Assembly: GCA_017134395.1 (NCBI GenBank)
Contig: CP070993.1
Span: 608,945-672,944, forward strand
Length of the DNA stretch: 64,000 nucleotides
From: Candidatus Kaiserbacteria bacterium
GTDB lineage: Bacteria > Patescibacteriota > Minisyncoccia > Phycocordibacterales > UBA2100
Direction: 5' to 3'
The notes below the pieces were generated by a model, which made no database searches, was not told the origin of the DNA, and was given only the letters and a program-made list of their open reading frames with translations. A program made the translations under genes and the position numbers. Positions 35,748 to 35,912 of this stretch are shown here, one piece after another. Numbering within the stretch: the stretch's first letter is position 1; every line of letters starts with the position of its first letter.

Positions 35748-35784
35748 CTTGGTCGGTAACTTCTTCTGTGGTATAGTGCTCCGC

Positions 35785-35858
35785 AGCGGGGTGGAGAAGA
35801 AGTATCTCGCGGGGCTCATAACCCCGAGCCGTCGGTGCAATTCCGGCCCCCGCAACCA
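35785..35858 (+). tRNA. initiator tRNA-fMet (anticodon CAU) with noncanonical D- and T-loops; CCA encoded
   Basis: acceptor, anticodon stem-loop and T-stem near-identical to E. coli tRNA-fMet; 1:72 mismatch (A x A); three G-C pairs closing the anticodon stem; D-loop lacks GG, T-loop UGCAAUU. Confidence 0.7.
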
Positions 35859-35912
35859 CGAAAAGTACATTGCGGAGCAATGTACCTCGTGGCACGCAAG
35901 TGTCCACGATAC

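What the first reader, a model, noticed from the sequence alone, without database searches (positions are those of the whole stretch)
35776..35886. Initiator tRNA-fMet with canonical identity elements but degenerate D- and T-loops, embedded in complementary leader and trailer
The acceptor stem (AGCGGGG/CCCCGCA, 1:72 mismatch), anticodon arm (CGGGG-CUCAUAA-CCCCG with three G-C pairs) and T-stem are near-identical to E. coli tRNA-fMet, and CCA is encoded. The D-loop (AGAAGUA) lacks the universal G18G19, and the T-loop is UGCAAUU rather than UUCAAAU, so both partners of the G18-psi55 tertiary pair are altered. This suggests compensatory change in a functional but structurally unusual initiator. 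The gene is flanked by a 7-nt leader-trailer pairing (gctccgc 35778-35784 with gcggagc 35872-35878) and a trailer hairpin (35866-35886), probably processing signals.
Basis: seen in the sequence. Interest (0 to 1): 0.5.

Follow-up and report, generated by a model that had tools for sequence, protein, structure and literature searches.

The report
Initiator tRNA with swapped elbow pair
This is a genuine, conserved start-codon (initiator) tRNA of a Patescibacteria (CPR) bacterium in which two "universal" elbow nucleotides, G18 and U55, are replaced together by A18 and G55, a swap that recurs in many bacterial lineages and seems not to have been described.

Summary
The tRNA is real (35785-35858, +; ARAGORN; Rfam 48.6 bits against a cut-off of 29). 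It carries every sequence mark of a bacterial initiator. Its loops are not degenerate. By alignment the D-loop AGAAGUA reads A14 G15 A16 A18 G19 U20 A21, so G19 is kept. The T-loop UGCAAUU has G55, with U54, C56 and A58 kept.

A18 and G55 predict each other in both directions:
- Of 72 unique G55 initiators from 185,579 species genomes, 66 have A18-G19.
- Of 60 unique initiators with an AGNAGUA D-loop from metagenomes, 55 have G55.
- In a sample not selected on either position, 130 are canonical, 4 are A18/G55 and none are mixed.

The gene sits in conserved synteny (ligA-gatC-gatA-orf212-tRNA) in 13 relatives. It is identical or differs by 1-3 bases, while GatA identity falls to 62-81%.

UGCAAUU fits the (UGHAA)UU consensus of non-tRNA T-loops, which take an intercalating adenosine. 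I infer that A18 fills that role.

The leader-trailer repeat is real (16 nt) but unique to this window. Its leader arm is the conserved promoter -10 box and discriminator, so it is probably not a processing signal.

Verdict: a functional initiator and a new variant of the tRNA elbow.

The parts
35749..35754 (+). -35-like hexamer TTGGTC of the tRNA promoter
   Evidence: Read from the sequence. A TTGGYY hexamer lies 17 nt before the -10 box at the same place in 12 relatives. The consensus scan did not list it because it matches only 3 of 6 bases.
35769..35777 (+). Extended -10 box TGgTATAGT
   Evidence: Conserved as TGnTATAGT, TATGCT or TATACT at a fixed distance (7 nt) from A1 in most of the 12 relatives; L038 has GATAGT 9 nt upstream. 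In the other window tRNAs the -10-like box ends 9-10 nt before the mature 5' end.
35778..35784 (+). GC-rich discriminator GCTCCGC between the -10 box and A1.
   Evidence: Conserved as GCYCCGC-like in relatives. A start 7-8 nt after the -10 box falls at 35784/35785, giving a leader of 0-1 nt. This is inference.
35785..35858 (+). Initiator tRNA (tRNA-fMet, anticodon CAU at 35817-35819) with encoded CCA
   Evidence: ARAGORN. Rfam 48.6 bits. Identical through A73 in six loci (L005, L028, L065, L092, L131, L175), two pairs of which look like the same organism sampled twice.
35798..35804 (+). 7-nt D-loop AGAAGUA. A18 is at 35801 and G19 at 35802.
   Evidence: Rfam alignment to the consensus AaUGGUA. 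AGNAGUA is the D-loop of most G55 initiators.
35836..35842 (+). T-loop UGCAAUU: U54 35836, G55 35837, C56 35838, A57 35839, A58 35840
   Evidence: Sequence. It fits the (UGHAA)UU consensus of non-tRNA T-loops. G55 co-occurs with A18.
35865..35885 (+). Trailer hairpin 1 (GTACATTGC-GGA-GCAATGTAC), specific to this window
   Evidence: Absent from the trailers of 12 relatives, where the terminator follows about 8-12 nt after A73.
35871..35886 (+). Trailer arm of the 16-nt inverted repeat with 35770-35785
   Evidence: (88% complementary). Not conserved. On the minus strand it reads as a promoter-like copy, TGGACA-16-TACATT + GCTCCGC.
35887..35909 (+). Trailer hairpin 2, specific to this window
35910..35938 (+). 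Intrinsic terminator (12-bp stem TACAAAAACCCC/GGGGTTTTTGTA, loop GAGTA, T-rich tail)
   Evidence: Relatives have an equivalent terminator right after the tRNA.
35996..36283 (+). Small GIY-YIG nuclease-domain ORF inserted between tRNA-fMet and tRNA-Met (context, not part of the tRNA)
   Evidence: Pfam PF01541, E 4.3e-19. No tblastn match in 13 syntenic relatives.
36461..36535 (+). Elongator-type tRNA-Met(CAU) with a canonical elbow (context and internal control)
   Evidence: 67.4 bits.

Best explanation
This is the working initiator tRNA of a Patescibacteria (Kaiserbacteria/Paceibacterota-like) genome.

Expression. It is transcribed on its own from a conserved extended -10 promoter that ends 7 nt before A1. 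The leader is probably 0-1 nt (inferred). Transcription stops at an intrinsic terminator. Here, two window-specific hairpins lie between the tRNA and that terminator.

Identity. The tRNA has the full set of bacterial initiator elements: CAU anticodon, G29-31:C39-41, an unpaired 1:72, G2:C71, C3:G70, A11:U24 and A73.

The elbow. It is built differently from the textbook one. G19:C56 and the U54:A58 reverse-Hoogsteen pair are kept, but the G18/Psi55 contact is replaced by A18/G55. The resulting T-loop, UGCAAUU, is the sequence type that T-loops use outside tRNA (YGNRA, best (UGHAA)UU). In those loops a G at position 2 makes the turn and an adenosine from the partner loop intercalates between positions 4 and 5.

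Inferred mechanism. I infer that A18 intercalates between A57 and A58 and that G55 takes over the turn-forming role of Psi55. The L-shape would then be preserved without Psi55 and without G18. Because either single change is rare and the double change is common, the pair behaves as an epistatic, compensated alternative state. That state has arisen or spread in several phyla and is held by purifying selection.

Shown: the gene, its identity elements, its conservation, the covariation and the sequence match to generic T-loops.
Inferred: the 3D geometry, the leaderless start, aminoacylation and formylation, and that this is the only initiator in the genome.
For: 1. Real tRNA: ARAGORN and Rfam. 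The score is not pseudogene-like. A canonical initiator scores 60.7 bits; other A18/G55 initiators score 58.8 and 57.9; this type scores 48.6; the gathering score is 29.

2. Conservation: ligA-gatC-gatA-orf212-tRNA synteny holds in 13 relatives, with GatA 62-81% and orf212 44-75% identical. In the 12 relatives retrieved the tRNA is identical in 6 loci and differs by 1-3 bases in the other 6, partly through compensatory T-stem changes such as G49:C65 to A49:U65. The most distant relative, L030, differs at more positions but keeps A18 and G55.

3. Covariation, G55 to A18: scanning one genome per 185,579 species for the initiator anticodon arm plus a UGCAA T-loop gave 97 hits. Among the unique real tRNAs, 66 have A18-G19, 5 have GG and 1 has another pattern.

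4. Covariation, A18 to G55: a metagenome scan for the AGNAGUA D-loop plus the initiator arm gave 55 unique sequences with G55 and 5 with U55.

5. Sample not selected on 18 or 55 (viral contigs, anticodon arm only): 136 unique initiators, of which 130 are U55+GG, 4 are G55+AG, 2 are U55 with another D-loop, and none are mixed. Fisher p = 7e-8. The known G19:C56 to A19:U56 covariation showed up in the same data, which serves as a positive control.

6. Structure: across 58 unique A18/G55 initiators, 95.9% of cells are paired and 15 of 24 pairs show changes on both sides. 1:72 is unpaired in 48 of 58. G2:C71, C3:G70, G19:C56 and U54:A58 are invariant.

7. Precedent: FMN/cobalamin riboswitch T-loops are YGNRA, most functional as (UGHAA)UU. 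The intercalating base is A in 99.96% of cases, and tRNA T-loops differ from these at position 2 (bioRxiv 10.1101/2022.12.26.521914). Elbow anatomy is from PMC4810234.

8. The other 7 tRNAs in the window have normal GG and UUCRA loops.
Against: - Only 64 kb of the genome is visible, so a second, canonical initiator elsewhere cannot be excluded.
- There is no expression, aminoacylation or structural data.
- The assignment of A to position 18 rests on alignment to a 7-nt D-loop consensus plus the covariation, not on a structure.
- Many hits are related, so the counts are not independent events.
- About 8% of AGNAGUA initiators keep U55 and about 7% of G55 initiators keep GG, so the coupling is strong but not absolute.
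- The Rfam score of this particular sequence type is about 12 bits below that of a canonical initiator.
Confidence: 0.8

Rival explanations
1. The A18/G55 elbow is not just a neutral compensated state. It is an adaptive, initiator-directed feature. It could retune the contact with the N-terminal domain of IF3, remove dependence on the Psi55 and Gm18 modification enzymes, or escape an enzyme or toxin that reads the T-loop.
For: - In cryo-EM 30S pre-initiation complexes, IF3 N-terminal-domain residues R25, Q33 and R66 contact G19, Psi55, C56 and A57 of the initiator tRNA. Mutating those residues lowers initiation fidelity (PMC9723500).
- In several contexts only the initiator carries the swap while neighbouring tRNAs are canonical: this window has 7 normal tRNAs, and freshwater tRNA-rich loci have 13-27 normal tRNAs plus one A18/G55 initiator.
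Against: - Verrucomicrobiaceae loci carry the same swap in nearly all isoacceptors, and some Kaiserbacteria also carry it in elongator tRNA-Met, so it is not restricted to initiators.
- The initiator-only pattern is partly a product of how the loci were found, since the search patterns were initiator-specific.
- No infC gene lies in the window or in any bacterial locus fetched, so co-variation with IF3 could not be tested.
Confidence: 0.2
2. The complementary leader and trailer form an RNA helix that guides 5' and 3' processing of a longer precursor.
For: - The inverted repeat is real and far beyond chance: 16 nt, 88% complementary.
- The fold of 35760-35950 puts the tRNA inside this helix, with a z-score of -5.7.
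Against: - It is not conserved. The best leader-trailer duplex is -24.1 kcal/mol here and -7.8 to -12.6 in 12 close relatives, whose trailers run straight into a terminator.
- The leader arm is the conserved TGnTATAGT box plus discriminator, so it should lie upstream of the transcription start.
- Starting at A1, the trailer folds on its own into two hairpins plus the terminator.
- The extra trailer segment coincides with a window-specific insertion that includes a GIY-YIG ORF.
Confidence: 0.08
3. It is a decaying tRNA pseudogene or a redundant copy, and the loop changes are damage.
For: - It has the lowest Rfam score of the 8 tRNAs in the window (48.6 bits).
- Two 'universal' nucleotides are missing.
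Against: - The same sequence recurs in six other loci and in conserved synteny, with a conserved promoter and terminator.
- Stems are kept by compensatory changes.
- The two changes co-occur far more often than either alone.
- All identity elements are intact.
Confidence: 0.03
4. The unusual bases are sequencing or assembly errors.
For: None specific. The five G55+GG cases in unrelated MAGs (L001, L003, L021, L032, L054) could be such errors.
Against: The identical 71-nt sequence appears in six other loci, and dozens of related A18/G55 sequences occur in isolates, MAGs and metagenomes.
Confidence: 0.01

Closest known systems
Escherichia coli tRNA-fMet (metZWV/metY), the textbook bacterial initiator
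   Same: CAU in the loop CUCAUAA; three G:C pairs at 29:41, 30:40 and 31:39; an unpaired 1:72; G2:C71; C3:G70; A11:U24; A73; an identical T stem GUCGG/CCGGC; encoded CCA.
   Different: A1 instead of C1. A 7-nt D-loop with A18 instead of a 9-nt loop with G18. A 4-nt instead of a 5-nt variable loop. T-loop UGCAAUU instead of T-Psi-CAAAU, so no Psi55 is possible. The E. coli sequence is quoted from my own knowledge.
Eukaryotic and archaeal initiator tRNAs with an initiator-specific elbow (A54 and A60 in Eukarya)
   Same: The initiator, and not the elongators, departs from the universal T-loop. PMC7912444 notes A54 in eukaryotic initiators.
   Different: Different positions are involved (54/60, not 18/55), in a different domain of life. 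There is no evidence here for a role in excluding elongation factors.
Non-tRNA T-loop/receptor modules (FMN and cobalamin riboswitches, rRNA, RNase P)
   Same: Loop sequence class YGNRA, best (UGHAA)UU, with an adenosine intercalating between positions 4 and 5 and a Watson-Crick contact at position 3 (bioRxiv 10.1101/2022.12.26.521914). The window's loop is UGCAAUU, with A18 and G19:C56.
   Different: Here the module sits in a tRNA, where position 2 is otherwise U. The receptor is a D-loop rather than a riboswitch loop. The geometry is inferred, not solved.
Mitochondrial and other tRNAs with truly degenerate D and T loops
   Same: They also lack G18 and U55.
   Different: Those tRNAs have lost most elbow contacts and vary widely in loop size (PMC2777451 abstract). 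Here G19:C56, U54:A58, G53:C61 and loop lengths are all kept, and the change is one precise paired swap.
[quoted passage not shown]
   Same: Verrucomicrobia is among the phyla reported to hold L-arrays. The Verrucomicrobiaceae loci found here carry many tRNAs with the same A18/G55 elbow.
   Different: The window's gene is a single chromosomal, syntenic initiator, not part of an array. That paper does not mention the elbow.

Membership tests
Bacterial initiator tRNA (tRNA-fMet) | Anticodon CAU in a 7-nt loop | tested here: met
   CUCAUAA at 35815-35821.
Bacterial initiator tRNA (tRNA-fMet) | Three consecutive G:C pairs at 29:41, 30:40 and 31:39 | tested here: met
   Stem CGGGG/CCCCG. Invariant in 58 related sequences, although the search patterns required it.
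Bacterial initiator tRNA (tRNA-fMet) | No Watson-Crick pair at 1:72 | tested here: met
   A1 x A72. Unpaired in 48 of 58 related A18/G55 initiators.
Bacterial initiator tRNA (tRNA-fMet) | Formyltransferase and MetRS determinants: G2:C71, C3:G70, A11:U24, A73 | tested here: met
   All are present in the sequence. G2:C71 and C3:G70 are invariant and A11:U24 occurs in 45 of 58. That these are the determinants is from my own knowledge of the E. coli system.
Bacterial initiator tRNA (tRNA-fMet) | Charged with Met, formylated and used by IF2 in the P site | not testable with these tools
   No expression or biochemical data. No fmt, infB or infC gene lies in the 64-kb window.
Bacterial initiator tRNA (tRNA-fMet) | The only initiator gene of the genome | not testable with these tools
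   Only the window is available. Within it, the other CAU tRNA is elongator-type.
Canonical tRNA (Rfam RF00005) | Score at or above the gathering threshold | tested here: met
   48.6 bits against 29.
Canonical tRNA (Rfam RF00005) | Cloverleaf supported by compensatory changes | tested here: met
   95.9% of cells paired; 15 of 24 pairs with changes on both sides; 0 of 500 shuffles reach the observed values.
Canonical tRNA elbow | G19:C56 Watson-Crick pair and U54:A58 pair | tested here: met
   G at 35802 with C at 35838; U at 35836 with A at 35840. Both pairs are invariant in 58 sequences.
Canonical tRNA elbow | G18 and U55 (Psi55) | tested here: not met
   A at 35801 and G at 35837.
Generic T-loop/receptor module (YGNRA plus intercalating A) | Loop sequence YGNRA, optimally (UGHAA)UU | tested here: met
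   UGCAAUU compared with the consensus quoted.
Generic T-loop/receptor module (YGNRA plus intercalating A) | An adenosine from the partner loop intercalated between positions 4 and 5 | tested here: inconclusive
   A18 is at the aligned position of the normal intercalator and covaries with G55.
tRNA pseudogene | Relaxed constraint: broken stems, no conservation, lost expression signals | tested here: not met
Leader-trailer processing helix | Complementarity conserved among relatives | tested here: not met
   -24.1 kcal/mol in the window against -7.8 to -12.6 in 12 relatives.
Leader-trailer processing helix | Both arms present in the transcript | tested here: inconclusive
   The leader arm overlaps the conserved -10 box and discriminator. 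No 5'-end data are available.

The most novel reading that the evidence does not exclude
The A18/G55 elbow is a functional signal specific to the start tRNA. Position 55 is one of the few bases of the initiator that the N-terminal domain of IF3 touches. The swap would therefore have co-evolved with IF3 (or with loss of the Psi55/Gm18 enzymes) to set initiation fidelity or speed in these reduced genomes. That would give bacteria an initiator-specific elbow analogous to the A54/A60 elbow of eukaryotic initiators. A further untested possibility is that this initiator is made without a leader, and so without RNase P.
Probability: 0.2. Interest if true: 0.8.

Novelty: new variant of a known kind. 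Interest (0 to 1): 0.6.

Why it matters
G18 and Psi55 are treated as universal. [quoted passage not shown]

A natural, recurrent and tightly coupled A18/G55 replacement matters for four reasons:
- It shows that the tRNA elbow has a second stable solution, the one used by T-loops in riboswitches and rRNA.
- It predicts tRNAs that cannot carry Psi55 or Gm18.
- It gives a clean natural double mutant for testing how the elbow is read by IF3, the ribosome, RNase P and modification enzymes.
- tRNA-finding and pseudogene-calling tools that penalise these positions will under-score real initiators in Patescibacteria.

Nine searches of the held literature, plus look-ups inside individual papers, found no description of the swap. 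That library lacks most subscription journals, so prior description cannot be ruled out.

Tried and rejected
1. Exact look-up of the window's GatA in the assembly collection found nothing on record. The organism was placed through relatives instead.

2. Rfam at a permissive threshold around the tRNA found nothing besides the two tRNAs and a chance antisense match. Rfam on six relatives found no family for the non-coding stretch between their two Met tRNAs.

It was replaced by two 14-base scans.

4. The IF3 co-variation idea: no infC gene lies in the window. The idea remains untested.

5. Searching for TruB, Fmt, RNase P protein or a CCA-adding enzyme in the window: Pfam scans of 60 of the 75 candidate ORFs found none, so this says nothing about the rest of the genome.

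6. Literature searches for A18/G55, U55G, T-loop variants in Patescibacteria, TruB in CPR and tRNA arrays in Verrucomicrobia gave no description of the swap.

7. The alternative numbering of the D-loop (G at position 18, U at 19) was considered and rejected. It leaves no base between 19 and A21 and breaks the invariant G19:C56 pair.

8. A programmed frameshift in the short release-factor gene was considered. The sequence shows a normal ATG start with its own upstream region.

Full report
**What is there.** ARAGORN finds a 74-nt tRNA-Met(CAU) at 35785-35858 on the + strand. Rfam's tRNA model matches it end to end at 48.6 bits (gathering score 29, E 2.4e-7 for the whole window). This is the lowest score of the eight tRNAs in the window, which range from 59.8 to 72.4 bits.

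Read from the sequence, the parts are:
- acceptor AGCGGGG/CCCCGCA with A1 opposite A72
- U8, G9
- D stem GAGA/UCUC, which includes A11:U24
- D-loop AGAAGUA
- G26
- anticodon arm CGGGG-CUCAUAA-CCCCG
- a 4-nt variable loop AGCC
- T arm GUCGG-UGCAAUU-CCGGC
- A73 and an encoded CCA

The Rfam alignment puts the 7-nt D-loop on the consensus AaUGGUA. That gives A14 G15 A16 A18 G19 U20 A21, so G19 is kept and only G18 is replaced. In the T-loop only position 55 departs from the universal pattern (U54 G55 C56 A57 A58).

The second CAU tRNA, 600 nt downstream (36461-36535), has G1-C72 paired, an ordinary anticodon stem and ordinary GG and UUCAAAU loops. It is an elongator-type tRNA.

**It is a conserved gene, not a relic.** A scan of one genome per 185,579 species brought in the closest relatives, which are Kaiserbacteria/Paceibacterota MAGs.
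- Thirteen relatives keep the order ligA-gatC-gatA-orf212-tRNA. GatA is 62-81% identical and the 212-aa membrane protein 44-75% identical to the window's.
- The tRNA is identical through A73 in six loci. In the other close relatives it differs by 1-3 bases, partly through paired T-stem changes.
- Across 58 unique initiators of this type, 95.9% of stem cells pair and 15 of 24 pairs show changes on both sides. No shuffle or slid control comes near these values.
- In the same set, 1:72 is unpaired in 48 of 58. G2:C71, C3:G70, G19:C56 and U54:A58 never vary.
- A canonical initiator scores 60.7 bits in Rfam, and two other A18/G55 initiators score 58.8 and 57.9. The score of this gene is not that of a pseudogene.

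**The two odd bases go together.** I tested the link from both sides.
- Conditioning on G55 (initiator anticodon arm plus UGCAA) gave 97 hits in the species genomes. About nine were not tRNAs. Among the unique tRNAs, 66 have A18-G19, 5 have GG and 1 has something else.
Among the unique tRNAs, 55 have G55 and 5 have U55.
- A sample not chosen on either position, from viral contigs scanned for the anticodon arm alone, gave 136 unique initiators. Of these, 130 are canonical, 4 are A18/G55, 2 have U55 with another D-loop, and none are mixed. Fisher p = 7e-8.
- The same data show the known G19:C56 to A19:U56 covariation, which is a useful positive control.

The carriers come from several phyla:
- Many Patescibacteria groups: Kaiser-, Giovannoni-, Niyogi-, Sung-, Taylor-, Yanofsky-, Zambryski-, Andersen- and Berkelbacteria.
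- Verrucomicrobiaceae.
- Three Halomonas species.
- Telluribacter (Bacteroidota).
- Chloroflexota.
- Myxococcota.
- Others.

The counts are not independent events, and the scans were capped. Even so, either single change is rare while the double change is common, which is the signature of a compensated pair.

**How it most likely works.** In the normal elbow, G19 pairs with C56. G18 slides between bases 57 and 58 and makes one hydrogen bond to Psi55, which sits at the turn of the T-loop (PMC4810234).

T-loops outside tRNA follow a different rule. In FMN and cobalamin riboswitches they are YGNRA, and the best-performing full loop is (UGHAA)UU. The base that slides into the gap is adenosine in 99.96% of sequences. 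The authors note that tRNA T-loops differ precisely at position 2 (bioRxiv 10.1101/2022.12.26.521914).

The window's loop is UGCAAUU, and the D-loop offers A18 next to G19. My reading is that this tRNA has exchanged the tRNA-specific G18/Psi55 contact for the generic G/A solution and keeps everything else. This is inference from sequence and precedent, and no structure was computed. One consequence follows directly from the sequence: this tRNA cannot carry Psi55 or Gm18.

**Why the initiator?** In this window, and in freshwater loci with 13-27 canonical tRNAs, only the initiator carries the swap.

The N-terminal domain of IF3 contacts G19, Psi55, C56 and A57 of the initiator in 30S pre-initiation complexes (PMC9723500). 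That gives an initiator-specific reason for position 55 to matter.

Two observations argue against strict specificity. Verrucomicrobiaceae loci carry the swap in almost every isoacceptor, and some Kaiserbacteria also carry it in elongator tRNA-Met. In addition, my search patterns were initiator-specific. I could not test co-variation with IF3, because no infC lies in the window or in any bacterial locus. I rate an adaptive, initiator-directed role at about 0.2.

**The flanks.** The complementarity is real and longer than reported: 35770-35785 against 35871-35886, 16 nt, 88% complementary.

The leader arm, however, is the tRNA's own promoter. TTGGTC, a 17-nt spacer, TGgTATAGT and a GC-rich 7-nt discriminator run directly into A1. 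This layout is conserved in most of the 12 relatives. The other tRNAs in the window have their -10-like box ending 9-10 nt before the mature 5' end, against 7 nt here. A start 7-8 nt after the -10 box would give a leader of 0-1 nt. This is inferred.

The relatives lack the complementarity (-7.8 to -12.6 kcal/mol against -24.1 here), and their trailers run straight into a terminator. The window has about 50 extra bases that form two hairpins before the terminator. It also has a GIY-YIG ORF downstream that no relative has. On the minus strand the trailer arm reads as a copy of the promoter's -10 box and discriminator.

I conclude that the repeat is a local rearrangement or insertion scar, not a conserved processing signal. 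The encoded CCA is also local: the 12 close relatives retrieved read AACA, and no other tRNA in the window encodes CCA.

**Limits.**
- Only 64 kb of the genome is visible, so whether a second initiator exists is open.
- Expression, charging, formylation, the 5' end and the 3D contact are all untested.
- The held literature contains no description of a natural A18/G55 tRNA, but it omits most subscription journals.

**Verdict.** The processing-signal idea is not supported. This is a new variant of a known kind.

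Noticed in passing
L011, L016, L019, L020, L026, L029, L050, L058, L067, L088, L091 (whole loci): Verrucomicrobiaceae/Prosthecobacter loci, including the cultured P. fluviatilis KACC 12649, hold 6-14 tRNA genes per 8 kb. Nearly all of these tRNAs, across many isoacceptors, have G55 with AG-type D-loops. Some have T-loops AGCAUUA or AGCGUUA (54 and 58 swapped to A...U) or CGCGAUA. 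Rfam scores are 31-65 bits, and in L011 the tRNAs are interspersed with MFS and ZnuA genes. They may be a horizontally acquired array or the main tRNA set; this is unresolved.
   Followed up: partly
L129, L207, L141, L127, L135, L167 and about 20 similar metagenome loci: tRNA-rich loci from lake and other aquatic metagenomes carry 13-27 canonical tRNAs plus one A18/G55 initiator (CGCAGAG...UGCGAAU). The same initiator sequence occurs in 24 loci. Flanking genes in L207 are cellular (AhpC, CMD, hydrolases).
   Followed up: partly
L006 7090-7164; L013 593-666; L069 1273-1343; L115 36-107; L116 196-270: Elongator-type CAU tRNAs of Patescibacteria have T-loop UCCGA (C55) together with a normal GG D-loop. 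This is a third state of the 18/55 pair.
   Followed up: no
window 5161-5235 (+): tRNA-Ile with anticodon UAU (Rfam 70.4 bits). This suggests AUA may be read without a lysidine-modified CAU tRNA in this genome.
   Followed up: no
window 35996-36283 (+): A 95-aa ORF with only a GIY-YIG nuclease domain sits between tRNA-fMet and tRNA-Met. It is absent from all 13 syntenic relatives. Together with the extra trailer hairpins, it looks like a local insertion.
   Followed up: partly
window 47238-56058: A probable integrated element of about 8.7 kb in tRNA-Gln. A large serine recombinase (47297-48985, minus strand) overlaps the tRNA 3' end. A 19-nt direct repeat of that end (CGAGTCCTAGTCCGACAGC) occurs at 47291 and 56040. 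Most ORFs inside have no Pfam match. The LOOT RNA (RF03000, 82.7 bits, 50968-51090) lies inside the element.
   Followed up: partly
window 41426-42286 (+): A class I release factor of only 286 aa matches just the C-terminal half of the PCRF domain plus the RF-1 domain. It has a normal ATG start and no sign of a frameshift site upstream.
   Followed up: partly
L131 6990-7190; also L065, L175, L092, L028: In five relatives, about 200 nt of non-coding, hairpin-rich sequence with its own terminator lies between tRNA-fMet and tRNA-Met. It has no Rfam match and no ORF longer than 35 aa that lies wholly within it. It may be an undescribed small RNA.
   Followed up: no
window 35879-35906 (-): A promoter-like site on the minus strand (TGGACA-16-TACATT followed by GCTCCGC) is an inverted copy of the tRNA promoter's -10 box and discriminator. 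If active, it would transcribe antisense to the initiator tRNA.
   Followed up: no
window 35759-35767 and 35795-35803: A 9-nt perfect complement (ACTTCTTCT/AGAAGAAGT) links the promoter spacer and the D arm of the tRNA. Its meaning is unknown, and the spacer is only partly similar in relatives.
   Followed up: no
window, upstream of the tRNAs at 5161, 18836 (-), 36461 and 38297 (-): -10-like boxes (several with TGn) end 9-10 nt before the mature 5' ends of tRNA-Ile, -Ser, -Met and -Asp. This implies leaders of only about 2-3 nt in this genome. None of these tRNAs encodes CCA.
   Followed up: partly
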